A DNA stretch of 64,000 nt from Trichodelitschia bisporula (Eukaryota). Location of the stretch: positions 1,178,001-1,242,000 of the forward strand of contig ML996688.1 of NCBI GenBank assembly GCA_010356995.1, written 5' to 3'. How positions within the stretch are numbered: position 1 is the stretch's first letter; the number at the start of each line of letters is the position of its first letter. Made by a program: the position numbers and the translations under genes. The notes below the pieces were generated by a model. The model saw nothing but the letters and a program-made list of their open reading frames with translations. It was not told the DNA's origin and did not search any database. This document shows positions 9,133-47,502 of the stretch, one piece after another.

Positions 9133-9882
9133 ATGATGGCAGTGTATCCCAAAACACAGCCCTACACGCCCTACCACGACACTACGGACGAGGAAGCCTC
9201 CGTCCACGGCGAAGACGCCGCCTTCCTCGAGAAGCCCGGGAATGGGAAGAAGGCACTGCCGCCGAGTCGTGTTGTCCGCGTTGCGCGCACTGTTTTCTCT
9301 CTCGCTACGCTCACTTGCTTCCTGAGCGCTGTGACCGCCGCTACGGTCCTCACGCTCTTCATCCAAAGCCAGCACCACTGGGGCATCGCGACGTCCATGC
9401 TTCAATTCCGCAACCCCGCCGCCAACGACTTGGCCAGCTACACTGCTTTGCAGAGCTACCACTGCGGGAGCACACCCGCCGAAGCGCGGGCCCTGGGATG
9501 CGTATTCGACGTCATGAGCTTCGCATGGACGCCGCCCGCATGCTACGACCAGTCCGTCTCCGCCGCCGTGATCGAGGCGCAGGGCCCGTGGGTGTTCTAC
9601 CTAGACCACAACGCCACGCAACCGATCCCCGATAGCTTGGAGGCGCTGAGCAGCGAGGTAGTCGTGTGGACGGAGCATAGTTATCACGTTGCGCATTGTC
9701 TTTACGCGTGGGAGCGGATTCACCGGGCGTATTTGAGTGTTGAGAAGCTGTTGCCGGCGGAGGTGGGGAATGTGAATCATACGCTGCATTGTGTGGGGCT
9801 TTTGAATGGGGAGCAGAGTGAGAAGAAGACGGTTAATGCGATTGCGTATATGGTGTTTGATTCTTGTGTGGATTTGAATTAG
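9133..9882 (+). CDS. UstYa/DUF3328-like oxidase A (single exon, type II membrane anchor, two HxxHC motifs)
   Basis: TM segment VFSLATLTCFLSAVTAATVLTLFI, then CGSTPAEARALGCVFDVMSFAWTPPAC, and HVAHC and HTLHC. First ATG at 9133; the ORF track start at 9094 is GTG. Confidence 0.75.
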   Translation: MMAVYPKTQPYTPYHDTTDEEASVHGEDAAFLEKPGNGKKALPPSRVVRVARTVFSLATLTCFLSAVTAATVLTLFIQSQHHWGIATSMLQFRNPAANDLASYTALQSYHCGSTPAEARALGCVFDVMSFAWTPPACYDQSVSAAVIEAQGPWVFYLDHNATQPIPDSLEALSSEVVVWTEHSYHVAHCLYAWERIHRAYLSVEKLLPAEVGNVNHTLHCVGLLNGEQSEKKTVNAIAYMVFDSCVDLN

Positions 9883-11724: not shown

Positions 11725-13650
11725 CTACCACCCCCCACCCCCACCAATCTCCTCCCTCAACGACCGCAGCAACAACCCCGCCGCCCGCTCCTTCCCATCC
11801 CTCCCAGCAGCTCCAATCAACTTCTCCGCCCATCGCTCCAAGCCGCCAACAACGCCCTTCCCGCGCTCCATCTCGGCGCGCACCACCGCCTCCAGCACAC
11901 CCCCGCAACTCTCTTCCCCCTCAACCTCAAACTCGCCAATCGCAACCCCGACCCTCCTCCCCTCCCCGGGCTCGGTCGGTGAACTGGGCGCACTGCTCGT
12001 CACACTCCCCGCCGAGCCCGCCAGTGCCGCGCCACGCCCCCGCAGGGTCATGTAGCACGAAAACACCTGCTGCACGATAAGCACGCAGGCGAGGAACAAG
12101 CTCGGACTGCTCGCGACCCCGCTGAGACATGCCGGGCACGCGAGGTAGCTGCTAACCGTCAACAGCCCGCGCCGCGCAACCAGAAGCGCGCTGTCCAGCG
12201 GTGATCCCGCGCCCCGCAGGCTGTGCAGCTCGGCAATGATGTGCAGCGACAGCGGGTCGCACAGGCAGCTCGGCTGCTGCTGATGCTGGTGCTGCGGGGG
12301 AGCCGCGAGGGTGGTGGGCGGTGAGGCGTGCGGTGGCGCTTGGGCTAGGACAAGCATATTGCTGCCCGTGAATAGCCGCGGTGATACGGCATCGTCGGGT
12401 GCGAGGGGGCCGTGCAAGGTGTCGTCCAGCATGGGAGGCGCGGCGATGGCCGTGGGTGTTCCGGTGAGATAGGACTCCGACTGCGTGAACCAGCCGAAGT
12501 CGTCGATGTCCAGGCCTAGATCTGCGGAGGGGGGGTAGTCGAGTTTGCGGGCGTCGTTGCTAGGCGCTGGGGAGGGGGAGGGTGGGCCAGCGTGTTGATT
12601 GGGGGGCGGATAGTACGGGGGGAGGAGGGGCTCGGCGGGGAGAAGTTCCGAAGAATCGCGCGGTGGAGGCGGCGCGTGGTACGTCGTGTTTAGGTGCAGG
12701 CCCATATCGCTGCTAGTAGGACCCGGATGGCGACTTAGCGGTCCGGTGTGAATACTCGTGGGACCACTGTGGTCGGTTGCCATACGTTTCGCCTGATGGT
12801 CAGCCTTCTCGTCGGCACGCTGCAGGACAGAGGACGCGTACCAGAGGGAGAGCGCCGTCGGAGGAGCGCTTGCGAGGACTTGTGCTGAGGTGGCGCGGGT
12901 CGAAGTGGTGATTTGAATCGGCTGGAGCTGTTAGCTACGGTGCGAGATGTGACTGACATGTCCACCATGCTTGGTGCGAGGAGAGGTCGAAGAAGCATAT
13001 GGGGGAGCATGGGACGTAGCATGTTCGATCATATGAGAGTAAAGACTCACCGGGAGCAATCGCCGTCTGCTGCTCGCTCTCCTGCGGCGTCTTCAGCCGC
13101 TTCACCTTGTTCTTGCTGCCCTTTGGCTTGCCGAGCGGCTTGCCCGTGCTGTACGTGCAAGCGCTGTTGTTGCGCTGGCAGCGTTCACAAGTTGGGCGTT
13201 CGCCGGAGCAGCGGACTTTACAGCGGTAGCACTGGCGAGGTAAGTAAGCGCAAGAAAATGGGCGTGGAGAAGATGAGGTTTGTGAAGAGGAGTGGGAGGA
13301 TATGTGACGAGACGGGAAGGGACGTGCTGGGCCGTGGTGGTTCCTGCCGTGGTAGTGATGTTGTGCCCAGCCCCATGCATCGTGAAAAACAGCGGAGCAC
13401 CGCATCACACCGCAACCACCGCCACAAGACCAACAACCGGCCCAGAAAGCAATAAAAAAGGAGGCGCCGAACTCACTTGGTCACAAGCAGTGCAAATGTG
13501 GCCGGAGGACTCCTTTCGAACATGGCCGCGGCGCTGTGTCGCCGAACCGGAGCCCGAAGCTGTTGACGAGTCGGTTGTCGAGACCGTGATGCCAGTATTA
13601 GGCGCCGAGCTGGGCCCCGAAGAGGAGCTGGCTCCGGCGGTGCCGTTCAT
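11725..13650 (-). CDS. Zn(II)2Cys6 transcription factor with AflR-like C-terminal region, 4 exons
   Basis: Splicing 13477 to 13231 gives CTACDQCYRCKVRCSGERPTCERCQRNNSACTYSTGKPLGKPKGSKNK, a complete six-Cys cluster. Two further introns join it to ORF 11725-12783 (CLCDPLSL...LDSALLVARRG...YLACPAC...VAIGEFEV). Confidence 0.85.
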
Positions 13651-16600
13651 CGTAGCTGGAGAATTCGCGGTGCGTGGTGGAAGGTGTCGTGCAGGACTCA
13701 GAGTCAAATCGCGCGGGACGACGCACGGCTTCGGAGGTTGATGTTAAGTACTCTTGCTTCTGGGTTGGGTTCCGTCGCTGGTTTTCTAGCCTCGAGACCG
13801 GGCTCTTGCTGCTTGTTAAGCTGCTTGCGCGATGCGGGGGAGGGGTGAGGCCGAGGACGGAGACGGCGTGGTGGGGTGCGGAGCTGGGAGAGTGGAGAGA
13901 GCTGGTGGGGATGGGAGGGGAGTGAGCTCTCTTGGTTGGACAACTTTTGGAGTAGCAGTTGAGGTGATGCGGTCGCCTGGTTGGGTTGTGTGGCTTGGAT
14001 AGCCAGGCTGGATGCGAGGCTAGGGGTGGGTGGATGGGGGTGGAGAGATGGGAGGGATGCGAGGAGATGGGATTGGTGAGAGAGAAGAAAGAAACAGAGG
14101 AGAGAAGAGAGAGATAGCGGGGAAGCAAAGCAGAATAATGGAGGAAGAGGAGGCGGCGGACAGGCCACCACCAAACACCAAACACCAAACAGCCACAGCT
14201 TCTTCCTCTTCCTGATCCATTTCTAACCACTCTCGTCCGCTCGCCTCCACCTTTTCCCCCGCCCAGTTCTCCCCCACTATCACGGAATTGCGAGATCGCG
14301 CATGGTCCACCGTCCAACGTGGCACTAAGGTCTTGCAGCTTGCTGCACAGGACTGATACGCCGAAGAAGGCAGTCCAGATGCACCGAAGGGAAATACCGA
14401 TATGCTTCTCCCTCGTCCCGTAAGTAGTACGAGATGCTCCCAAGGCCTTCCCACAACAGGCACATGCCCCTCTCACCACCGATCGACCGCCATCAATCGC
14501 GATGATAACCCATCAGGCTATCAAAGCCCACCCTCGGCCCTAAGCTCTAACCTATCCCCCCCCCCCCTCTCCCCCGGAGGTACGTAGAAGGAAACAATCT
14601 CACCATCTCTCCAATCCCGTTCCTCGGACCTTCTCCCGCCTCGGCGAAAGCTCCAAACCACGCACCCACCCGTCCGCGCCCGGCCCGTCCCCCAGCATCA
14701 AGCAGGCAATTAGCATAGAAGCAAGCAAAGTGGAGAACGGAGCGGAGCGCCTCGTCAGCGTGTGCCGTGGTCCGGGGACGGCGAAAGGGTGGGGGAAGCG
14801 GATGGCGTTTGGCTCAGAGGCTTCAGCTTCGGGCGCGAGCTGGTGCGGGCGCTGGCGTTGCTGGCGGGCGGGCTGTTCGGAGGGGCACGAGGTGACGGGG
14901 GAGGGGGCGCGGGAAGGGAAGGGGTGGTGAATAGCGGTGATGGGAGAATGGAGTGGTTGGAGTGGTTGAGTGGTGATGGCGTCTCGTTTGGCGTGCGCCC
15001 ATTCGCCAATTGCACGAACGCCCTTGATAGTTCTGCAGCGTGTCGCCGGATCGGGGGCCTGGATGCCTTCGGATCGCCGGTGTCCGCTCTCGCCTGGGCT
15101 CCTCCGAGTTGGCCGGTTGCGAGTTGCTGGTTGTCTCGCACGCCGGTTCGCCATGCGCTTCCACGCCGTTACCTGATGCCGTCTTTTGTGGCCTTTTGAA
15201 GATGCGTGTCATAGAGGTAAGACTCCCTCTCGTCATATCATGTCCCGAGCTCGCCACGGCTAGAACTAGTCGGTCGATCAGTCAGAAAAAGCGTTTCAAG
15301 CGAAGGGAGTATCCGCCCTTCCCGCAATGGGGGCCCGTGAATGACATGTGGAAATACGGTAGACACCACCGTTGCGTCTATCGCGGGTGATCTTAGCCTC
15401 CGTCTCAGCCAATTACTATGCATCCCCGGCGGGTGCGTATCGCGCACACGTAATACTTGACCGTGCGGCCTACGCGCGGGAGTGCCGCTCGTCTGTTGAG
15501 CGGCAGCAACGCAGATTGGCCGAAGGGAAACGCACACCCAGAGAACTCGTGATGGTACTGGCTCTGGATGCCATTCCGTTCCCGAGCACTCGTAACTGTA
15601 CCTTCAGCAATCGGACGCAAAATAGCACTCGCTCCCTTAATCGCGCGCATCCCAGTTAGTACTCTGCTCTCCTCGCTCTCCCTCGCTCTTTCACGACTCC
15701 GATCTCGCTTCCACGCCGTCTCAACCACTCATCCGCGCGCCACGGACCACCACCGCCTCCAAAATCCCCCTCCACCACCCGCTATACCGGACCCCAATTC
15801 GCAAGTCTCCTCGCTTTCCGCGTCAAGACGGCAAGATCACACATCAGAGCATATACCAAGGCAATCAATCCCGCACCCAGCAAGCGCAGCCACTCGCGCG
15901 GTACTACTGCAGGGAATTCAACTCGAAGGCCAACACACACGACAGCCATGCAGACAACCGCCATCATCCCAGCACCCGACATGTGCGGGCTGATGCGCCA
16001 TTGTCTCTGCTCGCTGCCACCCTACCGAATGCCTCGTGCATCCTGCATCCTGCCTGCTGCGTTTGATGCTGCTACGCTTGCAACTGTGGAGTGGCGTCGA
16101 GTCGCTGCCCTGTCTACCATTTACCTTCGCGTCTCTTTCTCCCGAGTTCTACCGCCGTTGCGATTCTGCGATCATATGCAGGCTGCTCGAGCCTGTGCTA
16201 GCCAGAACGAACGAAGTAGACGCGCTACAATCACTCCCACCGCGAACTACGGATGTAGATGTCGCGGTGTTTGTGAACGCTTCCCACATGTACAGTAGTT
16301 TGCGTCGTCGGAGCTCCCCGGCCCCACCCAACCCCGCATCTCCCTCAACTGAGACTCCGGTCAGCGAGGCTGAAGCGGGGTGGATGCCTCTTGCGCAAGC
16401 GCAGCCAAAGGCGCACATCCAGCCTCCAAAACCGGCCATACCGAGTTCGTAACGGAATAAGCGTACGTTCCATGGTAAGACATACCGCGCGCCCGCTCCG
16501 TACCGCTCCGGCACGACTCGTGCATTACCCCAAAGCAGCTAATTATCCGCTCTAATCGCTTGCCGCAGTGCGCTCGTACCCAGACGGATACGCGGTCAGA

Positions 16601-19288
16601 GTTTACCGCCCCAACGGGGAGGGAAGAAGCAAGGTGAGAGAGAAAATGGTGAAATGCGGTGAAAAGGCAAAATGGTAGGGAACATGGTGCGGGTTTGCGC
16701 GCGGAAGCAAGGGCCAAGCGGGGGCGGCGGCAGGCCTGCGGCTTATCTATCTTACCGCGCTCTTGCACCAAACCAGACACGCGATACAGGCCTCTCCGCT
16801 GTCTTGGGTCGTCGAAAAGCTTGCGACACCCGCCCGACCGGCTGAATGGTTGGAGGGTCGAGGGGTAGTTAGCAGGGGTGTGTTGGTCGCCAAGAGTTAG
16901 GTGCTGGGGGCGTTGAGCAGATGCGCGCCAAGGGGAAGTGGGTGAGCCATGTGAGGACGGGATAGGATGATCGAATAGAAATTCGGGTGAGATGTGCTTG
17001 GTGAGTGGGTGGGTGGGCAACCCGTGAGAAATGGAGATGCGAGGTGAATTGGTGATTCGATGTCCGAGGTACTGACAAAAAACGGCCGGTGGTTGTTCAT
17101 GCTGAAAGAAGTTGGAGGGGACGTGTGACGGATCGGCAATCTGAGATTCGATGCCTGCTGCTGAGGAAAAGTGGAGGAGGTGTGAAGAGGAATACTGGAT
17201 GTGTGCCGCTCTTTATGCCCTCATTGGACCCGAGGCGTCCGCTTGAAGGAAGAGGAGGAAGAGATCCAAAATGCCACCCACCCCGGTCGATCTGTCCGTT
17301 CGCAACCCAGGCTCGATGGCCCAGTGCCTCACCATGGAATGCTGCAAGGTGTCAGATCGGCCTGCCTTTCTTGTATCAAGCAGCTCAACCCCTGAGGGCT
17401 CGAGGACAGCACACCCTCAAGGCACCGATGGGGCGGGGGGCCGTGGGCGGCAACGCGGTGGAACCGTCGAACCGTGGGCCGGCCCGTAGGGCTTGTCGGG
17501 TTCGGCGGGCGTTCGCAAGAGATGTGATTCGCGTTACGAGCGATTGGCAGCCGCGAAGGGAGAAGAGCTGCACCCTGAGAGAAGCTGCACTTCGATGCGG
17601 CCGCAGTGGCCGCGGCCCACTCCACCAGCATTCCCCGCCATCGGAAAAGCTTTCTAGCAGGCCATCTCTGTCCGTCAGATAATTCAGCGCACAACACTCA
17701 GTCACTCACCTCAAACACACAGCCGACCGCGCCAAACGCCTTTGCCGACTCTTCCCACCGCGGCTGACAGTAGTAAACCCCATCAGAGTTAGCGACCACC
17801 CAAAACAGCCCCCCGCATCCCACCCACTCATGCCCATCTCCAGTCCCACGGCCACCCCTCCCCCTCCCCGGTACGACTAGCCCGCCGGGCCTGCCGAGTC
17901 AAGGAGACACGCGCCCGCAGTTGCACAGCCGCCCGAGACAAGCAACGATTGGTGGCCGCGGCGCCTCTCAGCAAGTCGGCCACAGACACACGGCGTTTGG
18001 GAGGCCGCTCACCGAGCAGTAGCCGAGCGCGAGCGTGATGCGCAGCGGTCATCCCTGTGACGCTGCGGCTCGTGGCCTATCGGGACCTTTCGCGACGTTC
18101 CACCAGCCCGTTTCCATTCTTCGGAACTGGCGTGGCGCCCCAAGTACAGACTGAGGAAAGCGCCGCTTCGTGGATTCATGGATAGCGGGGAGAGGGGAGG
18201 TTGAGTGGGTTGTCGTAACCGCTTTCTTGAGCATGTCTACGGATGTAGGCTTGGAGGAGGAAGATAAAAGGGAGAAGCGAGCGGGAAGCAAGCGAGAAGA
18301 AGCGATGTAATGAGGTGAGGTGCCTGTCGTATTTCTGGGGATTATTGGGGACTGGGAAGGAGCTTTGGCTTGAGCGTGATGGTGTGGGGAAGGAGGGAGA
18401 GAGTGGGGCATACGGTATTGTGTGCTTTGCCTCTCTGGTCGCTCTTACTTTCGGCACCCAAGTTGGAAGGAGAAAGGGACCTGCTAAGCCCAGATCACAA
18501 TATTTTCCTATCTGTTGGCACAACAAAGAGAAGGCGCGCCAAACCTCTTCTGCTGGAGTTGAAGTGAGACCTGAGACCTTTTACAAGATGCATCATCATT
18601 CCTTCCTTACCCCGCAAATACCGGTATCCGATCATATCATATCTCCATGACCTACTACCGAACCTACTGATGTACTACGTATATCCCGCGGTATGTTAGC
18701 AGTAACCAGTAAAACAGAAAACTAAGGACGTCGATACCGACCAGGTCCCAGTTCCCCGTTGACGAATTTCGTCTCCAGCGCCTCAGGAAAACCCAAGGGA
18801 AGGGCTCTCAGACCTCTTCGCGCCCTGGCCCTGGGAGAGTTGCTCGTCGTTTATTGGCTTCCCACCGTCCGTTTATGCAAACTCCCGCGCTTCGGGCGGA
18901 TGATTGGCGCGGCCAAACTGCAACGCACCACATTTGTGTCGCCATGCCGTTTCCTTCAATCTCACCTTTTCTCTCTCTCAACCTTTCCCACTTTCATCAT
19001 TCTCCCTTCTCTCGTCTCCCTGCTGCGTCTCTGCATATCTGCATCTCTGGCTGCATCAAACGTACGCCAACCGCCCTCCCCCCTACCCCGCTCTCTCAGT
19101 CCTCTTTTCTCCACCTTCGTCGTACCTCGAAGGAAGCGATTAACGCGAACCGCCAGTCTGGGTGAGAGATCCAGAGGGGCGACATACGGAACACACTCCA
19201 CCTGATCCTCACTGCTCTGCATATTCCACTTTCCGCTTCACCTCACCCCCCCCAAAATATCAAACCACCCTTACTCGACCATCTGCAG

Positions 19289-20362
19289 GTGCATCAACTG
19301 AACGCCTCACCACCCTCCATTCCTCAAACCCCTCCACACCCCCCTTCTTACCCTCGATGCCGTGCCTTATACTTGTCCCCTCCTTGTCCTTATCGACCGT
19401 GTAGGACGCAACTATCATCTCTCCTGGTATATTCTCCCCTTTCGTCCATCTCTCTCCCAACAGACGCAACCCCTTATCCTTCCATCACTTCCTTCCCCGC
19501 AATCGTCTTCCCCTCTCCACCAATTGTTTCCGCCATCGCTCCTTCCATACCCCCTACCCCCCTCCATTCCCCTGTCATAGATTTTGCGGCACAGCCGATG
19601 TGTAGTCCCGTATTCATCGTGTCGTCGCAGCAGAACACAGCAGAAGATTCCACGACAGCACCAACCGAATCCGCGCCGACGTCTTATCCCTACTGGGAAT
19701 CACCGCAACAGCTGTGGCCGCAGTGGCCTCTGCACTACTTTGGTACTCCGTACGCCCCCGAATCCGCTCAAGGACGCATATGCACCATAGCTCCTCGCAT
19801 GAGCGGATGCACCTGCTTCGCCTCCGCGTTGCAGGTCTCTGAGCAGCTCCACCGCACAGAGGCCGCCCTTGCCTCAACTGCCTTCGACCATGTCCTCAAT
19901 GTTGCCCGTCACGCCAGTGCCGTGTGCCGTCAGTACGCCGCCTGTCCGCTGTGCGCCGACCCTTCCTACTTCCCGCTCTACGTCATCATTCTGCGCAAGG
20001 CTGCCGCCTGTTACTCGCACCTGATCCAGGCGGCCTCTCCCGCCGGCGCCTCTCCCGGCACCGCGTCCACGGCCTCGGGCGTATCCGCCTCTTCGTCTGG
20101 CCAGGGAGCCCACACCAGCCGGGTCCGCATCGGCGCCTTTGAGGTTGATGCTCCGCTCGACGATCACACACGCGCGCTGATTCTGCGGACCGAGGTTCGT
20201 CGCGCGGCTGAGGCGGCCTGTGCGTTGGAGACGGTTCTGGGGCCTGGAAGTCCGAAGGCGGCGGCGCACCGCGACGAGACGGCGTTGATGTATCAGCGTG
20301 GACTCGTGGGAGCACTGCGGGAAGAGATTGGAGCGCTGGAAGGGGTGTTGCAGTCAATATGA
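19289..20362 (+). CDS. AflR-like C-terminal domain protein, putative regulator; true start uncertain (first in-frame ATG at 19598)
   Basis: CTCFASALQ...FDHVLNVARHASAVCRQYAACPLC...RVRIGAFEVD parallels the C-terminus of the neighbouring Zn2Cys6 factor. I found no Zn2Cys6 exon upstream. Confidence 0.65.
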   Translation: MHQLNASPPSIPQTPPHPPSYPRCRALYLSPPCPYRPCRTQLSSLLVYSPLSSISLPTDATPYPSITSFPAIVFPSPPIVSAIAPSIPPTPLHSPVIDFAAQPMCSPVFIVSSQQNTAEDSTTAPTESAPTSYPYWESPQQLWPQWPLHYFGTPYAPESAQGRICTIAPRMSGCTCFASALQVSEQLHRTEAALASTAFDHVLNVARHASAVCRQYAACPLCADPSYFPLYVIILRKAAACYSHLIQAASPAGASPGTASTASGVSASSSGQGAHTSRVRIGAFEVDAPLDDHTRALILRTEVRRAAEAACALETVLGPGSPKAAAHRDETALMYQRGLVGALREEIGALEGVLQSI

Positions 20363-21101
20363 AGAGGAGATGGTTGATGGGTTGTCGTTGAATTTAAGCG
20401 TGGGTCCCGTGGCGGCCATTGGTTGGCCGCGCGCTTGCGGCACAGCAGGGCGCGGGTAGGATGAAGGTTCCAGAGGCAGGGGCCGCTGGAACGGGCGTTG
20501 GGCAGACTTTTTGCAACTTGGGATTGGACTTGACGCAGTCAGTGGCGTTTGTGGATGGTGCGGTTTGTGTAACCGTTGTTAGTGCGGGGCGAAGGGGGGG
20601 GGGGGGTAAGTTGAAGAAGGGATGGTCAGAAGGAGTGGGACACATATATACCCCCGCGTTTTTTGACCAGGCGTGTGTTTGCATGGGCTGCGAGTATATA
20701 TATTGGACCAGGGTGTATCCGGTTTATGGGAGTGTTTGGTGCCTCTTTTTTTCTTGGACGATGCACTGGGGTTTCTTCTTTCTTGGGTGCTAGTTACTGG
20801 TCTCGTTTTGGATTTGTTGGACCGTTGGAGCGCTGGACCGCTGGACCATTGGGCTGTTAGACCGTTGGACTGTTTGGAAGTGTTGCACTTTGCTACAACT
20901 GGCTAATTCGTTCTTCTGCACAAGGTGTTGGTCCCGAGCACTTGGGTGGCCGATCCCTAGGTGCGGCACAGCATACTCTACGGTAGAGCATGCAGCAAGC
21001 GAACGAGTGGGCACTCTGCTTTCGGAAATTGCTTACGGAATAAACTATACACGGTCCACTACACGCATAACTCCCCGGCCTTTGCCCTGCCTTTGCTCAA
21101 C

Positions 21102-22086
21102 TTAGGGCGGCACAAAGTGCATTTCCTTGCCGCCAAACTGCCACGCATCGTTGTCCCGCGCCCCTTCGAGCCAGCTATACATCTGGTCGAAATTCTTGCA
21201 CACGTGCGGCACACCCAACTGTGAGCTTCCTCCGGGCAGATCCTCGCCGGCCAGCGCCATGTCACCTCCGCAGAGGAGCACCTGTCGCACGTAGTCAATG
21301 CAGTGATCCATATGCTCGGTGGAGTGGCCCGGTGGGGCGAGCTGGAGAGCGAGAAGGTCATATTCCGACATTATTTCGTACTAACGAGAGAATGTTAGCA
21401 GAGAGAGAAGTGGGGGGTTGCACCTGTGGAGGGGTAAAGTGGGACTTTGTTGTTGAGAGAGAAGGGGCAGGTGAGGTGGTTCGGGAAGGGATTCTCACCA
21501 GACAGTGTAGGGCGTGCATCATTGACGTCCCAAGACTCTTGCCACCATTGTACACCACCGGCTTGGGAAGCTTATACTTCGCAATATCGTCCTCCGTCAC
21601 CGCAACGTAGCCTTGTCCCGCTATCGACCCATCAGAAGCACATCGCACCGTCGGACACCATGACTTACGTGGCAACAGACCCATCCAGGCATCACGAGCC
21701 TCTCGCAAGCTCGCCTCGCTGGTGTGATTCGAAACGAACTGCGGATGCGAACTGAACACCACCGTCTCCGTCGAGAAATTTGGCACAAAGCCCGTTACAT
21801 CGTCCATCAGTCCTGGTGCTTCGTGCAGCGTCGGTCGTTGTTGTCGAATGACCACAAGGACTAGCACGGCTAGCAGTGCTGCATCGAGGAGGAATAGCCA
21901 TGGCGAGCGGGTGCGGGAGCAGCGTCGTCGGCGTGTCCGCTTTTCGTTGTGCGTGGGCAACATGGGCGAGGTATCCTCTTCCTCTTCAGCTATGGTAGAG
22001 GTGGACGACCCGCTGATGGACGGCCAAGGCACTTCTTCCATCAGGGCCGTCTTCTCGTACGTGCTTAGGTCAACTGAGGGAGGCAT
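21102..22086 (-). CDS. UstYa/DUF3328 oxidase C (canonical), 3 exons: 22086-21669, 21620-21499, 21380-21102
   Basis: TM LFLLDAALLAVLVLVVI; W.GLLPPGQGYV; SMMHALHCL; HMDHCIDYVRQVLLCGGDMAL; HVCKNFDQ. These are the hallmark DUF3328 motifs. Introns are GTAAGT...ATAG and GTGAGA...TTAG with a CTAAC branch site. Confidence 0.9.
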
Positions 22087-22945
22087 GGGTAGGATGAGCG
22101 ACTGGGTAGCGTCTGCGAGGTGGAGGCGGGCGGCGAGGAGGGAGAATGGGCGTGTACGAGGGGGACGGGGCATCAGGTTTGGGGATGGGGAGGGTGGATG
22201 GAGTGGATGGGGTCTGGTCAGGAGTGAGTCTCTTCGTGTGTGAGTAGCATTATGTTCGTAACCCCTCCCTTGACTGATGGCGACTGACCTCCGAAGCAGG
22301 CCATCGTGATCTCCACTTACACCGTCGGGAGCAGGCATACTTCGGACGCGAACACGCTGGCGCCGAAATATCATGCTGTACAACCGAATCTTGTGCGACA
22401 TCCGGGCTTGTCTCCGTACCGACCTCCGGCCTTAGCCTCGTTCCGACATATCCACGGCTCCGCGCGCTAATGCACGGCGGATGAAAACGCAATATGCAGG
22501 TTTCTGCAGCTGCTCTCCACAACCTGCTACTCCACATTTTGCTACTCGGCGCGTTGGGCACTGGAGATGCATCGTTCTCCACTACGTACTATCCAGTACC
22601 TACTCTGTACTGCGAACTCCGCCATAGCGTTACTCCGCACAAACCACCTCCAAAGCGCATGACGCCGTTCCTGTCCGCAGTGCGCCATTCGCTCTCCGCC
22701 AAATTGCCATTCGGCAGTCATAGGCCCTTCGATCTAACCTCCCATGTATCATACACCCCAGACCGGTCACCAGCGCCCTTATAAGCCTTGGTCACGCCAC
22801 GATCCAGGGCACAGCAGCAGTGACAGACAGGCAGCCTCGCACAAGACCCGATTTTTCTCATTCTTCAACGGCTTGGAATCCGTTTTGCCCGGTGCAGCTA
22901 CTTACTTTTTGATCGAATCTTTCCGACCTTTACCCCCTGTTCATC

Positions 22946-24002
22946 ATGAAGTTCACCAACGTTGCGGCCCTTGCGGCGCTCCTGACTGGTGCCACGGCTC
23001 TGCCGGTTGCTGAGGGTCAGTTTTTCTGAGATCGTGCTTAGTTACGGGAAGCTGACAAGTCTAGCTGATCCTATCTTCGCTCGCGTCGATAAGCGCGATC
23101 CCATCTTTGCCCGCGTCGATAAGCGCGACCCCATCTTCGCGCGTGTCGACAAGCGCGATCCCATCTTCGCGCGTGTCGATAAGCGCGAGGCTGAACCGAT
23201 CTTCGCTCGTGTCGACAAGCGCGAGGCCGAGGCCGAGCCCATCTTCGCCCGTGTCGACAAGCGCGACCCTATCTTCGCCCGCGTTGACAAGCGCGACCCG
23301 ATCTTCGCCCGCGTTGACAAGCGCGACCCGATCTTCGCCCGTGTTGACAAGCGCGAGGCTGAGCCGATCTTTGCTCGCGTCGACAAGCGCGACCCCATCT
23401 TCGCCCGTGTGGACAAGCGGGAAGCCGACCCCATCTTCGCCCGCGTTGACAAGCGCGAGGCTGAGCCGATNNNNNNNNNNCGCGTCGACAAGCGCGACCC
23501 CATCTTCGCCCGTGTGGACAAGCGGGAAGCCGACCCCATCTTCGCCCGCGTTGACAAGCGCGAGGCTGAGCCGATCTTCGCCCGCGTCGACAAGCGCGAC
23601 CCCATCTTCGCCCGTGTGGACAAGCGGGAAGCCGACCCCATCTTCGCCCGCGTTGACAAGCGGGAAGCCGACCCTATCTTTGCCCGCGTTGACAAGCGTG
23701 AGGCCGACCCCATCTTCGCTCGCGTCGATAAGCGCGAGGCCGACCCCATCTTTGCCCGTGTGGACAAGCGCGAGGCTGAGCCTATCTTTGCCCGCGTCGA
23801 CAAGCGCGAGGCCGACCCCATCTTCGCTCGTGTTGACAAGCGCGACCCCATCTTTGCCCGTGTGGACAAGCGCGAGGCTGAGCCGATCTTTGCCCGCGTC
23901 GACAAGCGCGAGGCCGACCCCATCTTCGCTCGCGTTGACAAGCGCGACCCCATCTTCGCTCGCGTGGACAAGCGCGACCCCATCTTCGCGCGCGTGGACT
24001 AA
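22946..24002 (+). CDS. Secreted Kex2-processed repeat protein; putative RiPP precursor with repeated core IFARVD. Exons 22946-23015 and 23065-24002
   Basis: Exon 1 is MKFTNVAALAALLTGATALPVAE (signal peptide). A 49-nt intron (GTCAGT...GCTGAC...CTAG) follows, then A-DPIFARVDKR and repeats of (EA)0-2[DE]PIFARVDKR ending DPIFARVD-stop. 27 complete units plus one interrupted by a 10-N gap. Confidence 0.93.
23067..23999 (+). repeat. Coding tandem array of 30/36/42-nt units
   Basis: Units vary at synonymous positions and in the number of EA dipeptides. Assembly gap at 23471-23480. Confidence 0.95.
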
Positions 24003-24809
24003 ACGCGCCCACACCCGCCAGCCCGACAGCTCGGGACGGCCGACAGCGGAGGAACTTTTGCGCGCCGCGGTTCTGCAGGTGGTTGCGGCCTGTGGTTTGG
24101 AGGTGAGGTGAGGTGAGGTTGGCGCGTTGACAGGGGGTGGGATTTGACGTCAACGGCTGGAACGCGTGGGGCTTTTGCGCTTTTCTGGTTGTGGTTAGGG
24201 GGGTTCTTGCCGCTGGGTGCGGGGCATTTCGCGGGGTTGCTGGGGGACGCCCTAGCAATTGAAGGGGGCGCGGTTTACGAGTAATGGGGTTTCGTTTTAG
24301 TCTACACGACGTAGTTTTTTTTAGGTGTGTGATGAATTTATGAGGACGGTCCTTTTTTTTGTGAGCATTCTGCGCTTTTTGCATGATGGGTGAGGGTGAC
24401 TTACTTGTGCTTTGCCTGTGCCTTTGACAACTGATGAGATTTGAGGGCAGAGCGTTGAGTTCGTGGTTGCCTTTCATGAAGCGGTAGCTGAGATGTGTCG
24501 AAATGATGACTTCCTTGTAAGGTATTGAGAATTGAAGTTCGATCTATCGAATTCTTCCTTGGAATGGCCATTGAGAATGATAATATGAAATTTCGACACT
24601 GAGAGTGCCATGTCATCGTCAAACCTTCGAGTCCCTCTGCCCATGTCATTCAAACCCGCATCAAGTGCAAGCCAGATAGGTACAATTCACAAGGTACACA
24701 AAGCTTCAAAAAAACCAAACATATATTGCTCATGACGTACAAACTGTCCTCTGATGCCAAAAAAAAGCTCAAACCTCCAAATCAAGCCTCAAACCCCCAG
24801 TCCAGCCCC

Positions 24810-25586
24810 TCAGTTACACGACGGAAAATCGACATGCAAGCGCGTGGTAACCATCTCCAGCGGCACACTCGTATTCATAAAAACCCTCGAACACAGCTCC
24901 GTATGCTCAATACTCGCCAGATTCGCATCCATCCGCCACCCCCTCTGCCAAGCGCGATGCATCGCCTTCCAGCCGTACACACAGTGCGTCACGAAATACC
25001 GGCGCGTCGTCCAGCTCACGACCCCGGCTTCGGAAATCTCCTCCTCGGTCATCCGGCGCCCGCTGGGGTCCGGGGAGCTGTAGAATTCCCACGGCCCTTC
25101 GAGCATGAAGGACTCGTGCAGGTCGGCGTCGAAACATTCCTGCGCTTGCCACGCCATGCTCATGACGTCGAAGACGCAGCCTGCGGCGCGGGCGGAGGTG
25201 GCGGTTAGGCCGCAGGGGTGTTTGAAGGAGCGCTGGGCGCGAGGAGAGGGTTTGAGACTATTGACCTTGGCGCCGATTTGGCCGAGGAGGTCGACGGTGT
25301 GGAAGGTTAGGCCGAAGATGAGGCCGATGGTTGTGAGGAAGGTAAGGATGCCGAGGATTTTGATGCCGAAGACGACGCGTCGGGTGCGGGAGCTGCGGCG
25401 CGGGAGGGGGAGCTCCATGTCCATGTCTTCTTCGTCGGAGGGTTCTTTGCGGTGGAGGGGGGTGTAGGAGGGGGGGTTTGAGGGACTGGAGTCGGAAGAA
25501 GATTTGGAGGCCATGAGAGGGGTGTATGAGGGGCTTGAGAAGGTGGTCTTGGGGCGGAGGAAGGAGGGGAGTGTGAGGGTGGGCAT
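24810..25586 (-). CDS. UstYa/DUF3328-like protein B (single exon), paralog of A with degenerate HxxHC motifs
   Basis: TM IKILGILTFLTTIGLIFGLTF; CGLTATSARAAGCVFDVMSMAWQAQEC aligns with A; GPWEFY. The motif positions read FVTHC and HTELC. Confidence 0.7.
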   Translation of the reverse strand: MPTLTLPSFLRPKTTFSSPSYTPLMASKSSSDSSPSNPPSYTPLHRKEPSDEEDMDMELPLPRRSSRTRRVVFGIKILGILTFLTTIGLIFGLTFHTVDLLGQIGAKVNSLKPSPRAQRSFKHPCGLTATSARAAGCVFDVMSMAWQAQECFDADLHESFMLEGPWEFYSSPDPSGRRMTEEEISEAGVVSWTTRRYFVTHCVYGWKAMHRAWQRGWRMDANLASIEHTELCSRVFMNTSVPLEMVTTRLHVDFPSCN

Positions 25587-26412: not shown

Positions 26413-28144
26413 ATGGCCCAAGCCTTCCGCTTTCCCCGCAGTCCCAAATCCCCCACTATCGTCCGCTCATCCTCTTGGAAAAGCCAGAGTCATGAACTCA
26501 GCAGTCCCTCCAGCTCGAGCAGCCCATTACCTACAATCGACGAGGAGCCGCGCCTCAGTGCTCTCCGCCTCATCGTCTTGACATGTAGCGTAGGCGGGTT
26601 CGTACCTCGTCCCTAGCTTCCGCTCCTCAGCTCACATTAGCAGTCTTCAACTCGTCTGGGCAACTATCATGTCCAATGGCACGGCACGTGCTCTCCTCCT
26701 CTCCATCTTTCCCCTGTATCATTATACTTTAGCTAACCCTACCAGCCCTTCCTCCTAACCCTCGGCCTCCCGGACTCCCTCACAGCATTCGTTTGGGTCG
26801 CCGCCCCCCTCTGCGGCGTCCTAGTCCAGCCCTCCGTCGGCATCCTCAGCGACGCATGCCAGCTGCGCTGGGGCCGGAGACGGCCATTCATCGCCGCCGG
26901 TGCCGCGGGCGTTGTAGTTAGCATGCTGGGACTGGCAAGCACACGCACCGTACTGCATACCGTACTCGGCGCTATGGGCGCCAACATCCACGGTGGTGGA
27001 GTGCGGACGGTTGTAATCCTGAGTGCGGTAGGGTGGTTGTGGCTGCTCAACTTCTTCATCCAGCCCCTGCAAGCCGGGATCCGCGCGCTGATCGTCGAGA
27101 ACTGTCCCGCGGCACAGCAGACACAGGCGTCCGCATGGGCGAGCCGTGTCACGGGGGTTGGGAACGTGGTCGGTTACTTTTTCGGGTATGTGCCTGTGGA
27201 CACGGTGTGGCCCGGCTTGGGCGTGAGCCAGTTTACGTGGTTGAGTCTTGTGGCGGCCGTGTGTCTTACCACCACGGTGGTAGTGACGTGCTTGTGTGTC
27301 CGGGAGCGGGATCCCAGGGAGCTTCCGCTGCCGCCGGGGGGTGGGAAGTCTCCGAGGGAGATGTGGAGGTATATTGTGTGGAGTGCGCGGACGATGCCAA
27401 GTGAGGTGAGGAGGGTGTGTATGGTGCAGTTTTTTGCGTGGATGGGGTGGTTTCCTTATTTGTTTTACATCACGAGGTAAGCCGGCCGATATCGGCATTG
27501 CACAAGTCGCTAACGCGCGCAGCTACATCGGCGACCTGTATGCCGCCCCCATCCTCGCTCGCCAGCCGCACATGTCCTCCACCAAACTGGCGGCCGTGAT
27601 AGAAGATGCAGTCCGGCTCGGCAGCCTCGGCAGTCTGATTTTCAGCCTCGTGGCCCTGGGCACTAACATCCTGCTCCCACGTCTCGTCTCCGACAAACCA
27701 GGCGCGCGACTATCTTTACCACGTGCCTGGGCCCTGTCCCACGCCATCTTCTCCCTCTGCATGTTCAGCACCCTACTAGTACACACCCGCCTCGGCGCAA
27801 CCCTCGTCGCCGCCGTCGTGGGCGTAGCCTGGGCCACCACGCTCTGGGTCCCCTTCAGCATCATCGGGTCCGCGATAGCAGAGCGACAAGCCCGAGGCGC
27901 CGCGGTGCTGCGTGACGGACAGCTCGGCCTTGAGCCGGCGGCGCAGGAGCAAGCGGGCGCGATCATGGGGCTGCACAACTGTGCGATTTCGGCGCCGCAG
28001 ATACTCGCCGCGCTGGTGAGTGGGGCTATCTTTTGGGCGGCGCCGAAGGTGGGGAGTGCGGATGGGATTGGGTGGGTGTTGAGGGGGGCGGGCGGGGCGG
28101 GACTGGTGGCAGCGTGGTTGGCTTGGGGGATGGATGAGAGTTGA
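26413..28144 (+). CDS. MFS/GPH sucrose-H+ symporter-like (SUT1/SLC45 family) transporter, multi-exon
   Basis: VWVAAPLCGVLVQPSVGILSD...WGRRRPFI, QAGIRALIVE, VQFFAWMGWFPYLFYIT, AGAIMGLHNCAISAPQI. Confidence 0.85.
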
Positions 28145-28852: not shown

Positions 28853-31055
28853 ATGGCCGCGGTCGCTGACCGTCTGACGCAGGTTGCGGCGCACCTGCTC
28901 CCGCAACCACCGCACCCTCACGACCCGCTATCAGGAGCGGAGATCCGCAAAGCAGTCGAAATCGTCCGGTCCGCACACCCAGGCCTCTTCTTCAACGCCG
29001 TGACGCTATGGGAGCCGCGCAAAGCGGCGATGCAAGCCTGGCTCGCAGCCCCGAACACCGCGCCGCGACCGCACCGCGTAGCGGATGTTGTTGCCATTGG
29101 GCGGGGCAGCAAGGTGTACGATGGTGTTGTGGACCTCACGACCGGGGAGATTGTGTCGTGGGAGCTGACGGAGGGCGTGCAGCCGCTGATCACGATGGAG
29201 GATTTGCAGATTGTGGAGAGCGTGGTGAGGCGCGATCCGAAGGTCATTGAGCAGTGTGGGATCATTGGGATTTCGCCGGAGGATATGCACAAGGTGTATT
29301 GCGACCGTGGGTGCTCCCTCCCGTTCCCCCTTCGTGGTGCTAATGGCCGCAGCGTGGACAATCGGCTTCGACGACCGCTTCGGCAGCAACGTGCGCCTGC
29401 AGCAGGCACTCATGTACTACCGCCCGCACGTCGACGACAGCCAGTACACGTACCCGCTCGACTTCTGCCCGATCTACAACGCCGACACACAGGAGATTAT
29501 CCACATCGACGTGCCACCGGTGCGGCGACCGCTCAACAAGGCCCCGCCGAACAACTACCACGCGGCGGCGATCGAGGCCGAGGGCGGGTTCCGCACTGAT
29601 CTCAAGCCCATCCACATTACGCAGCCCGAGGGCGTGAGTTTCAGTGTCGAGGGCCGAGTGGTCAAGTGGGTGAACTGGAAGGTGCATGTTGGGTTTAATT
29701 ACCGCGAGGGTCTGGTGCTGAGCAATATCACGTTCAATGATAAGGGGGAGGAGAGGCCGGTGTTTTGGCGCTTGTCGCTTGCGGAGATGGTGGTGCCGTA
29801 TGGGAATCCGGAGCATCCGCATCAGCGGAAGCATGCGTTTGATTTGGGCGAGTATGGCGGGGGGTACATGACGAACAGTCTCAGCCTGGGGTGTGATTGC
29901 AAGGGCGCGATCCACTACATGGATGCGGATTTCGTGAACCGGGCGGGCGAGCCGCAGACGATCAAGAATGCTATCTGCATCCACGAGGAGGATTCGGGCA
30001 TCCTATTCAAGCACGTAAGTGTCTCCGCGTCCCTTCAGTCCGAAGCATATAGCCTAACATTCCCAGACCGATTTCCGCGACGAAACCGTCACAGTAACCC
30101 GCGGCCGCAAGCTCATCATCTCGCACATCTTCACAGCCGCCAACTACGAATACTGCGTCTACTGGATCCTCCACCTCGACGGCACAGTCCAGCTCGAAAT
30201 CAAGCTCACCGGCATCCTCAACACCTACGCCATGAACCCCGGCGAAGACACCAAAGGGTGGGGCACAGAAGTCTACCCCGGCGTCAATGCACACAACCAC
30301 CAGCACCTCTTCTGCCTGCGCGTCGACCCGCAAATCGACGGGCCGTCCAACTCCGTCTTCCAAGTCGATGCCGTGCCCAGCGCCGCCCCCGTCGGTAGCC
30401 CGGAGAATTACTACGGCAATGCCTTCTTCGCACAGAAGACGCGGCTGGAGACGGCGGGTGCGTCGGCCTGCCAGTACGACGGCAACACGAGCCGCAGCTG
30501 GGACATCGCCAACGAGGCGAAGATCAACCCCTACAGCAAGAAGCCCGTCAGCTACAAGCTGGTCAGCCGGGACGTGCCGCCGCTGCTGCCCAAGGAAGGC
30601 AGCCTGGTGTGGAAGCGCGCCGGGTTCGCGCGGGCCGCCGTGCACGTCACCAAATGTACGTTCCCTCCCCCTCCCCCAAAGTACCAAACTAACAACCCCC
30701 AGACGACGACTCCCAAATCCACCCTGCGGGCCGGCACGTCCCACAAACCAGCGGCGAACCCTCAATGGGTCTGCCCGCCTGGATCGCCGCGAACCCAGCC
30801 GCGAACATCGCGAACGAGGACATCGTCCTGTGGCACACGTTCGGGCTGACGCATTTCCCGGCGCCCGAGGACTTTCCCGTCATGCCGGCGGAGCCGATGA
30901 CGCTGCTGCTGCGGCCGCGGAACTTTTTCACGCGGAACCCGTGTCTGGATATTAAGCCTTCGTACTCGAGTTCGCCGAGTGGGGCGAAGGCGACCGGGGT
31001 TGTGGATCGGGAGAGTAAGTTGGCGTTTACGGATAAGGGGTGTGGGAAGTGCTAG
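28853..31055 (+). CDS. Copper amine oxidase (TPQ-dependent), probably peroxisomal, 4 exons
   Basis: HDPLS..EI; AFDLGEYGGG; LGCDCKG; TPQ consensus TAANYEY (about 30133-30153); HNHQHLF; THFPAPEDFPVMP. N-terminal RLTQVAAHL fits PTS2 (RL-x5-HL). Confidence 0.93.
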
Positions 31056-37067: not shown

Positions 37068-37194
37068 CTAATTCTTGCCTCGTCCCCTTCGTCGCCGCTT
37101 TTCGCCCTGAGGGTGGGGTTGCATTATCTCGAATCGCATCTGCACGCCTCCGCCTGGGGGTCCCGGGGGTGGCTGGTGGATGTGTTGCTGTACC

Positions 37195-37226
<32 letters not shown>

Positions 37227-47323: not shown

Positions 47324-47502
47324 ACGGCTGCTGGATCTAGTGCAAGATCATGGTGGTTACCTTGCTGCTTATATATCCCACTGCGATGAATTGTTACATG
47401 TTGAACGAAGGATTCTACCCGCCCCATACTCCGTGGTTCCAATCCAAGACCGGAAAACGCCGAGTCTAAAGCACATCTAGGATATAGGAGGAAATAAGTA
47501 CA

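What the first reader, a model, noticed from the sequence alone, without database searches (positions are those of the whole stretch)
22946..24002. Every precursor unit collapses to one hexapeptide through Kex2/Kex1/Ste13-type processing
Seen: spacers are only DP, EA-DP, EA-EP or EA-EA-EP. The segment after the likely signal cleavage (ATA|) is LP-VA-EA-DP. All are X-Ala or X-Pro dipeptides, and the last unit ends VD-stop without KR. Established: Kex2 cuts after KR, Kex1 trims basic residues, and Ste13-type dipeptidyl aminopeptidase removes X-A/X-P. Inference: each precursor yields about 28 identical IFARVD peptides using only housekeeping Golgi proteases, which could explain why no dedicated peptidase lies inside the cluster. 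The ORF track misses the real signal-peptide exon.
Basis: partly seen in the sequence, partly recalled or inferred. Interest (0 to 1): 0.8.

Follow-up and report, generated by a model that had tools for sequence, protein, structure and literature searches.

The report
Fungal multi-copy IFARVD peptide precursor
This fungal gene encodes a secreted protein made of about 28 copies of the six-residue peptide IFARVD, set between cut sites like those of the yeast mating pheromone, and it sits in a conserved gene cluster with an oxidase that probably modifies the released peptide.

Summary
The gene is 22946-24002 (+), with a 49-nt intron at 23016-23064. It encodes 335 aa: a signal-like N-terminus, LP-VA-EA-DP, then 28 units of spacer-IFARVD-KR. 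The spacers are only DP, EADP, EAEP and EAEAEP. The last unit ends VD-stop. One unit is broken by a 10-N gap, so the true copy number is uncertain.

Contigs of two cDNA-like runs (one sample) skip exactly this intron. Two DNA runs keep it.

Two metagenome contigs carry orthologous precursors (17 and 26 units). Their neighbour proteins are 49-74% identical to the window's. The core, the LPVAEADP segment and the KR-less last unit are the same. All spacers, including new ones (EAEADP, EAEAEAEP, DAEADP), still parse as X-Ala/X-Pro.

Of 70 readable cores, 69 are IFARVD. All seven synonymous sites vary.

The conserved block is: two Zn-cluster regulators, a UstYa oxidase divergent from the precursor, two paralogs of a large family without a Pfam model that carries two HxxHC motifs, and an MFS transporter. 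No peptidase domain was found in it. The adjacent copper amine oxidase is not syntenic.

The processing reading passed every sequence-level test I could run. The secreted product is probably a UstYa-modified IFARVD. This is a new member of a known kind: Kex2-processed repeat precursor in a dikaritin-type cluster.

The parts
22946..23015 (+). Exon 1 of the precursor gene: residues 1-23 plus one base. Signal-like peptide MKFTNVAALAALLTGATA (22946-22999), then LPVAE.
   Evidence: An RNA-like contig covers it and joins it to exon 2.
23016..23064 (+). 49-nt intron (GT..AG, branch-like CTGAC) that splits the Ala codon after LPVAE.
   Evidence: contigs of X3 and X4 skip 49 nt with GT..AG ends; DNA runs X1 and X2 do not. 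The intron is at the same place (58 nt) in L001 and L002.
23065..24002 (+). Exon 2: 28 units of (X-Ala/X-Pro spacer)-IFARVD-KR. The last unit ends IFARVD-stop. A higher-order 102-nt (three-unit) repeat runs through it.
23471..23480 (.). 10-N run inside unit 13: an assembly gap or masked stretch of unknown true length.
   Evidence: The frame gives four X where three residues are expected.
21102..22173 (-). UstYa (DUF3328) family oxidase gene, divergent from the precursor. Exons 22173-21669, 21620-21499, 21380-21102. Motifs HALHC and HMDHC.
   Evidence: Pfam PF11807 at 8.2e-19, 68.8 bits for the database protein P0015. Last exon alone 7.6e-11. Both introns are skipped in X3/X4 contigs. Ortholog in L001 at 49-74% identity.
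24810..25586 (-). Single-pass membrane protein, convergent with the precursor. It belongs to a large family with two HxxHC motifs and no Pfam model. Here the motifs are degenerate (FVTHC, HTELC).
   Evidence: Ortholog in L001 (57%) and L002 (57%) in the same convergent position.
9133..9882 (+). Second paralog of the same family, with both HxxHC motifs intact (YHVAHC, NHTLHC). It marks the far end of the syntenic block.
   Evidence: Ortholog in L001 17652-18446 (48%).
26737..28141 (+). MFS transporter gene (at least two exons).
   Evidence: Pfam MFS_2 at 7.4e-07. Ortholog in L001 at 49-57% identity.
19166..20359 (+). AflR-like regulator (weak Pfam match), syntenic.
   Evidence: PF08493, E 0.0016, below cut-off. 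65% identity to L001 12468-13205.
11728..13480 (-). Zn(2)-Cys(6) transcription factor, syntenic.
   Evidence: Pfam Zn_clus at 9.6e-06. 45-49% identity to L001 15341-16681.

Best explanation
This is the precursor gene of a Kex2-processed repeat protein (KEP). It serves a small, conserved UstYa-type (dikaritin-class) peptide cluster in a Dothideomycete, probably Trichodelitschia bisporula.

Proposed path. The spliced mRNA encodes a signal peptide that is cut after ...ATA. In the late Golgi, Kex2 cuts after each Lys-Arg. A Kex1-type carboxypeptidase removes the Lys-Arg. A Ste13-type dipeptidyl aminopeptidase removes the X-Ala/X-Pro dipeptides (LP-VA-EA-DP at the front; DP, EA-DP, EA-EP or EA-EA-EP between units) and stops at Ile-Phe. 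Each molecule therefore gives about 28 copies of one backbone, IFARVD.

The membrane-anchored UstYa oxidase next door then modifies this backbone oxidatively, by cross-linking, hydroxylation or desaturation. One or both paralogs of the two-HxxHC family may take part. This could happen before or after cutting. The product leaves by exocytosis and/or the MFS transporter, under the two Zn-cluster regulators.

Shown here: gene structure, splicing, repeat pattern, purifying selection on the peptide, synteny.

Inferred: which proteases act, that UstYa acts on this peptide, and the chemistry of the product.
For: Repeat anatomy and KR-less last unit.

Splicing of exactly 23016-23064, and of two introns in the UstYa gene, in cDNA-like contigs of X3/X4 but not in DNA runs X1/X2.

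Orthologous precursors: L001 has 224 aa and 17 units; L002 has 330 aa and 26 units. Both have the same leader ...VTA|LPVAEADP, the same core and the same IFARVD-stop end. Every spacer type parses as X-A/X-P.

Selection: 69 of 70 readable cores are IFARVD. Seven synonymous sites vary against one non-synonymous change, present once.

Synteny, window versus L001, same order and orientation: paralog 2, Zn2Cys6, AflR-like, UstYa, precursor, paralog 1, MFS, at 45-74% protein identity.

UstYa membership: PF11807, 68.8 bits against a cut-off of 25.

No peptidase domain in the block.

Established knowledge, read as passages: Kex2/Kex1/Ste13 roles and the XA/XP signature in PMC6339444 and PMC9769878. 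DUF3328 genes are enriched next to KEP genes, on average 3.09 genes away, and pheromone KEPs almost never have them, in PMC7329392.
Against: No peptide or mass evidence exists.

Runs X3/X4 are one sample of one study, are labelled RNA only as a guess, and are contigs, so they say nothing on expression level.

The core has no Tyr, the residue that the characterised ustiloxin, phomopsin and asperipin cross-links use (PMC7329392 passages). No known UstYa chemistry can therefore be assigned.

Pro before Ile is invariant in 71 of 71 units. Ste13 alone does not require this, so Pro, and likewise the C-terminal Val-Asp, might be recognition elements or part of a longer product.

The paralog next to the precursor has lost one His in each HxxHC motif and may be inactive.

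A search with the repeat region found no related proteins in a 5.8-billion-protein collection. That search is weak on repetitive sequence.

Only two related loci could be read, and they resemble each other closely.
Confidence: 0.6

Rival explanations
1. The plain linear hexapeptide IFARVD is the final secreted product, acting as a hormone-like, pheromone-like or defence peptide made as yeast alpha-factor is made. The UstYa gene and the other neighbours act on something else.
For: The precursor has the full alpha-factor-type pattern: KR, then X-A/X-P, with a KR-less last unit. Le Marquer et al. (PMC6339444, passages) state that the STE13 signature is absent from the ustiloxin, phomopsin and epichloecyclin precursors, and propose that KEPs with it release unmodified peptide hormones. 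The core has no Tyr.
Against: UstYa is the immediate divergent neighbour. This arrangement, with the whole block, is kept in L001 at 49-74% protein identity. The UstYa gene appears as spliced transcript contigs in the same runs that hold the spliced precursor. In Umemura's survey 98.6-100% of pheromone-type KEPs lack a DUF3328 neighbour, and DUF3328 genes peak at the position next to KEP genes (PMC7329392).
Confidence: 0.17
2. The released unit has other borders. It may be an octapeptide [D/E]P-IFARVD, if the aminopeptidase removes only X-Ala. Or it may be a shorter core, such as the first four or five residues, with Val-Asp serving only as Kex2 P4-P3 context or as an enzyme recognition follower that is later removed, as Ile-Asp is in ustiloxin.
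For: The last spacer dipeptide is X-Pro in 71 of 71 units in three loci. This is tighter than the X-A/X-P rule needs. In UstA the YAIG core is flanked by conserved ED and KR motifs (the intervening Ile-Asp is my recollection, not in the passages read), and the proteases that trim these flanks are unknown (PMC6514808, passages).
Against: All three precursors end exactly at ...IFARVD-stop. The front segment LPVAEADP and the varying (EA)n lengths make sense only if the dipeptides are stripped. DPP-IV-type enzymes, the family of Ste13, accept X-Pro (stated in PMC6339444).
Confidence: 0.15
3. It is a victorin-like pathway in which the adjacent copper amine oxidase (28853-31055, +) oxidises the peptide's amino group.
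For: A complete copper amine oxidase (Pfam N2, N3 and catalytic domains, E to 1.6e-63) lies directly after the MFS gene. Victorin comes from another Dothideomycete and has a Tyr-free hexapeptide core, and its cluster includes such an oxidase. This rests on my recollection of Kessler et al. 2020, which is not held in the library.
Against: The oxidase is absent from the 5.7 kb beyond the MFS gene in L001. An unrelated ORF, an aldehyde dehydrogenase and a deaminase lie there instead. Its N-terminus (MAAVADRLTQ...) is not signal-like. IFARVD has no N-terminal Gly and no Lys once KR is removed.
Confidence: 0.05
4. It is the alpha-type mating pheromone precursor of this fungus.
For: Same precursor architecture and processing signature.
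Against: The repeat-frame ORF gave no match to MF_alpha families, only two spurious sub-threshold hits. The hexapeptide has no Trp, Cys or Gly-Gln-Pro features of Pezizomycotina pheromones (recalled; example motifs in PMC6339444). It has 17-28 copies, against a reported maximum of 16 for pheromones. A UstYa gene is next door.
Confidence: 0.03

Closest known systems
Yeast alpha-factor precursor (MFalpha1) and other KEPs with a STE13 signature (Le Marquer 2019, PMC6339444; Vogt 2022, PMC9769878)
   Same: Signal peptide; tandem identical peptides; KR after each unit; X-Ala/X-Pro dipeptides in front of each unit; predicted Kex2, Kex1 and Ste13 processing. A last unit without KR is recalled for MFalpha1.
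   Different: No long glycosylated pro-region; the signal peptide runs straight into four dipeptides. The peptide has 6 residues. There are 17-28 copies. A UstYa oxidase gene is the immediate neighbour, and pheromone KEPs almost never have one (PMC7329392).
Asperipin-2a cluster of Aspergillus flavus (aprA, aprY, aprT, aprR; described in PMC6514808, passages)
   Same: Minimal cluster: multi-core KEP precursor with a hexapeptide core, one UstYa-family oxidase and a transporter. No tyrosinase and no peptidase.
   Different: The core FYYTGY is Tyr-rich and cross-linked through Tyr. Here there is no Tyr, no reductase, two extra membrane proteins with two HxxHC motifs, and two regulators.
Ustiloxin and phomopsin (dikaritin) clusters (UstA/UstYa/UstYb/UstQ; PhomA/PhomYa-e/PhomQ)
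   Same: KEP precursor plus UstYa-family genes. The unit ends in an aliphatic residue, then Asp-Lys-Arg (partly recalled).
   Different: Those need a tyrosinase, and dikaritin clusters often carry S41 peptidases. The proteases that trim the ustiloxin flanks are unknown (PMC6514808). Here the flanks are fully explained by housekeeping enzymes, and no tyrosinase or peptidase was found in the block.
Victorin cluster of Cochliobolus victoriae (Kessler 2020; recalled, plus passages in PMC9233826)
   Same: Dothideomycete; hexapeptide core without Tyr but with Phe; UstYa-family enzyme; a copper amine oxidase nearby.
   Different: The oxidase here is not syntenic and has no signal peptide. The core has no N-terminal Gly. 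There is one compact cluster rather than loosely linked genes.

Membership tests
Kex2-processed repeat protein (KEP) | N-terminal signal peptide for the secretory pathway | tested here: inconclusive
   The layout is MK + 16 hydrophobic or small residues + A-x-A|LP. The site after residue 18 obeys the (-3,-1) rule in all three orthologs. No SignalP run was possible.
Kex2-processed repeat protein (KEP) | Several near-identical short peptides separated by dibasic (KR) Kex2 sites | tested here: met
   27 KR sites and 28 units; 17 and 26 units in L001 and L002.
KEP with STE13 signature (alpha-factor type) | X-Ala or X-Pro dipeptide(s) directly after each KR | tested here: met
   71 of 71 units in three loci; 7 inter-unit spacer types plus the leader segment all parse.
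Dikaritin-class (UstYa-dependent) RiPP cluster | UstYa/DUF3328 gene with two HxxHC motifs close to the precursor gene | tested here: met
   PF11807 at 68.8 bits (cut-off 25), with HALHC and HMDHC. The start codons are 773 bp apart and divergent. The arrangement is syntenic in L001.
Dikaritin-class (UstYa-dependent) RiPP cluster | Cyclic, side-chain cross-linked product (Tyr ether bridge in the characterised members) | not testable with these tools
   The core has no Tyr. The chemistry is unknown and needs MS/NMR.
Ustiloxin/phomopsin subtype | Tyrosinase (UstQ/PhomQ) and S41 peptidase in the cluster | tested here: not met
   No Tyrosinase or Peptidase_S41 hit among 118 + 94 ORFs.
Alpha-type mating pheromone precursor | MF_alpha-type domains or pheromone-like peptide; no DUF3328 neighbour | tested here: not met
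   No MF_alpha hit. UstYa is adjacent. The peptide is a hexamer without Trp or Cys.
Victorin-type pathway | Copper amine oxidase as a conserved cluster member acting on an N-terminal Gly | tested here: not met
   The oxidase is present in the window but absent from the syntenic locus L001. It has no signal peptide. The core starts with Ile.

The most novel reading that the evidence does not exclude
IFARVD is the backbone of an undescribed, Tyr-free class of UstYa-made fungal peptide. Its precursor has been reduced so that housekeeping Golgi enzymes alone define both ends of the core. The large family with two HxxHC motifs and no Pfam model (2335 cluster representatives) supplies a second, so far unrecognised, kind of tailoring or scaffold protein in such clusters.
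Probability: 0.3. Interest if true: 0.6.

Novelty: new member of a known kind. Interest (0 to 1): 0.4.

Why it matters
For ustiloxin-type peptides, which proteases trim the flanks of the core is still open (PMC6514808, passages). Core borders usually cannot be read from the sequence. Here the whole non-core part of a UstYa-associated precursor consists of a signal peptide, X-Ala/X-Pro dipeptides and Lys-Arg, and this holds across species. That gives a clean natural test case with exact predicted masses: 720.404 for [M+H]+ of the plain hexapeptide. It can be used to ask whether Kex2, Kex1 and Ste13 suffice, and what a single UstYa enzyme does to a Tyr-free core. The family with two HxxHC motifs found beside it could improve genome mining for fungal ribosomal peptides, since Pfam misses it.

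Tried and rejected
Searching 5.8 billion proteins with the repeat region (23067-23999) gave no hit at E <= 1e-3 among 8000 scored candidates. Repetitive queries are handled poorly, so this says little.

'IFARVD' in the paper library gave 0 papers. It was also absent from the held supplements of PMC7329392, PMC6339444 and PMC9632046. 'Trichodelitschia' is not in Umemura's strain tables.

No whole genome is held, so Kex2, Kex1 and Ste13 homologs, a canonical pheromone gene and other precursor copies could not be looked for.

The victorin paper is not held. One literature search was wasted on ambiguous terms.

The look-up of sequencing runs listed no holder on record as RNA. X3 and X4 are RNA only by guess, and are judged cDNA-like from the three skipped GT..AG introns.

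The idea that the membrane protein at 24810-25586 is a UstYa homolog was tested. Pfam gave nothing. hhalign gave 7.7% (A1 vs P0015), 20% (A2 vs A3) and 13% (A4 vs A3). Both HxxHC motifs align in register, but homology is not established.

No solved structure exists for UstYa or for the two-HxxHC family.

L003 and L011, short contigs with relatives of the membrane protein, show no KR repeats in the little flank they have. L005-L007, L012 and L013, which hold distant family members with 10 kb flanks, show no KEP-like array by my simple scan.

Earlier findings of the scan: nothing for this genome, and only bacterial repeat proteins by words.

My first automatic intron finder for L001/L002 chose wrong donors. 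It was replaced by a stricter pattern.

Full report
WHAT IS THERE

Reading 22700-24300 and splicing by script gives a gene on the + strand:
- ATG at 22946
- exon 1 at 22946-23015
- a 49-nt intron at 23016-23064 (GTCAGT ... CTGAC ... TAG)
- exon 2 at 23065-24002

Without splicing, the frame stops after 27 codons. The spliced product has 335 residues. It begins MKFTNVAALAALLTGATA, then LPVAEADP, then the first IFARVD-KR, followed by 27 further units.

The inter-unit spacers are DP (12), EADP (8), EAEP (6) and EAEAEP (1). The last unit ends IFARVD-stop with no KR. One EAEP unit is interrupted by ten N (23471-23480). The N run gives one codon too many for a single unit, so it stands for a gap of unknown length and 28 is an estimate.

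Tandem Repeats Finder sees periods of 30, 36 and 42 nt and a 102-nt three-unit super-repeat. No second array lies in the window. The mechanical ORF list begins the repeat frame at a GTG inside exon 1 and so lacks the signal peptide.

IS THE INTRON REAL?

Four public runs hold this DNA. Laid on 20900-23130, the contigs of X1 and X2 (DNA, possibly the source assembly) are collinear. The contigs of X3 and X4 (one sample, one study, 'RNA' only by guess) skip 49 nt with GT..AG ends at exactly 23016-23064.

X3 and X4 also skip two introns on the minus strand, 21381-21498 and 21621-21668, in the neighbouring gene. Three clean GT..AG deletions that the DNA runs lack mean these contigs come from spliced RNA. 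Contigs say nothing on expression level or transcript ends.

SELECTION AND RELATIVES

The 27 readable cores in the window use 18 DNA spellings.

The convergent neighbour gene (24810-25586, -) gave 14 homologs at 51-61% identity, counting the window's own protein. An alignment of them was used to fetch DNA from metagenome contigs. This returned 15 loci.

Two of the loci, L001 (18.9 kb) and L002 (3.5 kb), hold a 56-57% homolog with enough flank on the correct side. Both carry, in the same convergent position, an orthologous precursor.

After splicing by a strict donor/acceptor pattern:
- L001 encodes 224 aa with 17 units: 16 IFARVD and one IFARAD.
- L002 encodes 330 aa with 26 units, all IFARVD.

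Both start MKFA(N/S)VAVI(A/V)SLVAAVTA-LPVAEADP. Both have the first intron in the same codon. Both end IFARVD-stop. Their spacers are DP, EADP, EAEADP, EAEAEP, EAEAEAEP and DAEADP, and all parse as X-Ala/X-Pro dipeptides.

Over the three loci, 69 of 70 readable cores are IFARVD. Variation is seen at seven synonymous sites and at one non-synonymous site, in a single copy. So the peptide, not the DNA, is what is conserved.

The final spacer dipeptide is X-Pro in 71 of 71 units.

Two short loci gave nothing within their limited flank (L003, L011).

THE N-TERMINUS

No signal-peptide predictor is available here. A rule check shows a charged start, a 16-residue hydrophobic or small stretch, and several sites allowed by the (-3,-1) rule. 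Only the cut after residue 18 (TA|LP) is allowed in all three orthologs and also leaves a string that parses into X-Pro/X-Ala dipeptides (LP-VA-EA-DP).

THE NEIGHBOURHOOD

Pfam was run on 118 ORFs of 120 aa or more between 6 and 44 kb. It was also run on 94 ORFs of 70-119 aa between 9 and 28.9 kb, with targeted scans.

- Divergent from the precursor lies a UstYa/DUF3328 gene. Its database protein P0015 has 301 aa, matches PF11807 at 8.2e-19 (68.8 bits) and carries the motifs HALHC and HMDHC.
- NCBI names P0015 as a hypothetical protein of Trichodelitschia bisporula, a Dothideomycete. That is therefore the likely source of the window.
- Also present are a Zn2Cys6 factor (11728-13480, -), an AflR-like factor (19166-20359, +), an MFS transporter (26737-28141, +) and a copper amine oxidase (28853-31055, +).
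- Further off lies an I9+S8 subtilase (35467-36774, +). It has no kexin P-domain hit.

tblastn of L001 ORFs on the window and Pfam on L001 show one syntenic block with the same order and orientations: membrane-protein paralog 2 (9133-9882), Zn2Cys6, AflR-like, UstYa, precursor, membrane-protein paralog 1, MFS. Protein identity is 45-74%.

The block ends there. Beyond the MFS gene, L001 has an unrelated ORF, an aldehyde dehydrogenase and a deaminase, and no amine oxidase. The oxidase also lacks a signal-like N-terminus. I therefore do not count it as part of the system. The resemblance to victorin rests on recall, because the paper is not held, and it is superficial.

No peptidase domain was found inside the block.

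HOW IT MOST LIKELY WORKS

The roles of Kex2 (cuts after KR), Kex1 (removes the basic residues) and Ste13 (removes XA/XP dipeptides) are established. They are described for KEPs in PMC6339444 and PMC9769878 (passages). The latter also detected Ste13-type products by peptidomics in mushrooms.

Applied here, they reduce every unit, including the first (after signal peptidase) and the last (no KR), to IFARVD. Trimming stops because Ile-Phe is not an X-Ala/X-Pro pair.

The comparative data support this. The length and composition of the spacers drift between loci, but the dipeptide pattern does not.

PMC6339444 states that the STE13 signature is absent from the ustiloxin, phomopsin and epichloecyclin precursors. 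PMC7329392 (passages) reports three things:
- DUF3328 genes peak right next to KEP genes.
- Pheromone-type KEPs almost never have them.
- 17 of 76 KEPs related to Basidiomycota STE13-signature KEPs do have them.

So the combination seen here is uncommon but not unprecedented.

UstYa is the conserved divergent neighbour, and its spliced transcript contigs are in the same runs as those of the precursor. I therefore think IFARVD is a backbone that is oxidatively modified, not the end product (0.6 against 0.17 for the plain peptide).

Which modification occurs cannot be said. The core has no Tyr, and UstYa-family enzymes are credited with cyclisation, hydroxylation, chlorination, desaturation and transacylation (PMC10880069, passages).

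The invariant Pro and the Val-Asp before KR leave room for different product borders (0.15).

WHAT IS NEW

The peptide and cluster are not in the searched literature or supplements. The kind of system is known: a KEP precursor in a dikaritin-type cluster.

The useful twist is that the precursor needs no cluster-encoded peptidase, which fits the absence of one. For ustiloxin, the trimming proteases are still unknown (PMC6514808, passages).

SIDE FINDING

The two membrane-protein paralogs belong to a large family. A profile search of 1.84 billion representatives gave 2335 hits at E <= 1e-3, 1847 at <= 1e-10 and 416 at <= 1e-30.

Of 138 members scanned (136 from the 150 best hits listed, plus the two window paralogs), none reaches a Pfam family above threshold. 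Seven touch UstYa weakly, the best at 6.6e-4.

The family consensus has two HxxHC motifs and a CG...GC.FD.MS..W.P.CYD block.
- The 9-kb paralog keeps both motifs.
- The paralog beside the precursor, and its 13 close homologs, have F..HC and H..LC instead.

Family members sit next to true UstYa genes in L012/L013 (with a tyrosinase) and in L014.

Profile-profile comparison with UstYa aligns both motifs in register, but at only 13-20% probability. Kinship is suggested, not shown. No structure is solved for either family.

VERDICT

- Observation: confirmed.
- Processing interpretation: supported by every sequence-level test, but biochemically untested.
- Likely end product: a modified IFARVD.
- Novelty: new member of a known kind.
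- Interest: moderate.

Noticed in passing
window 24810-25586 (-) and 9133-9882 (+); L001 8069-8902 and 17652-18446; L012 9725-10720; L014 1111-1626: A large Ascomycota family of single-pass membrane proteins with two HxxHC motifs and no Pfam model (2335 cluster representatives at E<=1e-3). Two paralogs lie in this cluster, one with degenerate motifs. Members lie next to true UstYa genes in three other loci. Kinship to UstYa is suggested by motif register but not supported statistically (hhalign 13-20%).
   Followed up: partly
window 28853-31055 (+): A complete copper amine oxidase lies directly after the MFS gene. It has no signal-like N-terminus and is absent from the syntenic locus L001, so it is probably not part of the peptide cluster despite the resemblance to victorin.
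   Followed up: yes
window 23471-23480: A ten-N run inside the repeat array gives one codon too many for one unit. It is probably a gap of unknown size, so the array may be longer than assembled.
   Followed up: partly
L001 9500-10700 (-), L002 1100-3000 (-): The orthologous precursors have extra introns inside the repeat array: one in L001 and three in L002, one of them with a GC donor. Each lies in the same codon position (KR-E|A) as intron 1. This suggests that array growth copied a segment that included the intron.
   Followed up: partly
window 22297-22945: The cDNA-like contig that holds the spliced precursor starts about 646 nt upstream of the ATG. It nearly abuts the UstYa transcript contig, which ends at 22189-22253. 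Either the leader is long and carries upstream ORFs, or divergent transcripts overlap. Contigs cannot tell which.
   Followed up: no
window 22020-22110 region of UstYa and 25400-25440 of the membrane protein (protein N-termini): Both membrane proteins share a short acidic-Met-Leu-Pro ... Arg-rich motif just before the membrane helix. This was the only stretch hhalign aligned. It may be a sorting signal.
   Followed up: no
window 37071-40442 (-): A 1124-codon open frame with no Pfam match contains 6-, 9-, 15- and 45-nt tandem repeats (37186-37688).
   Followed up: no
window 45785-46644 and 44000-48000: An 860-N run lies within a stretch of low G+C (0.41-0.47, against about 0.58 elsewhere). A second MFS paralog lies at 47530-49143 (-), 28-39% identical to the L001 MFS.
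   Followed up: no
window 13500-19700: About 6 kb between the two regulators has no counterpart in L001 (2 kb there) and no Pfam hit. It may be a lineage-specific insertion or unannotated genes.
   Followed up: partly
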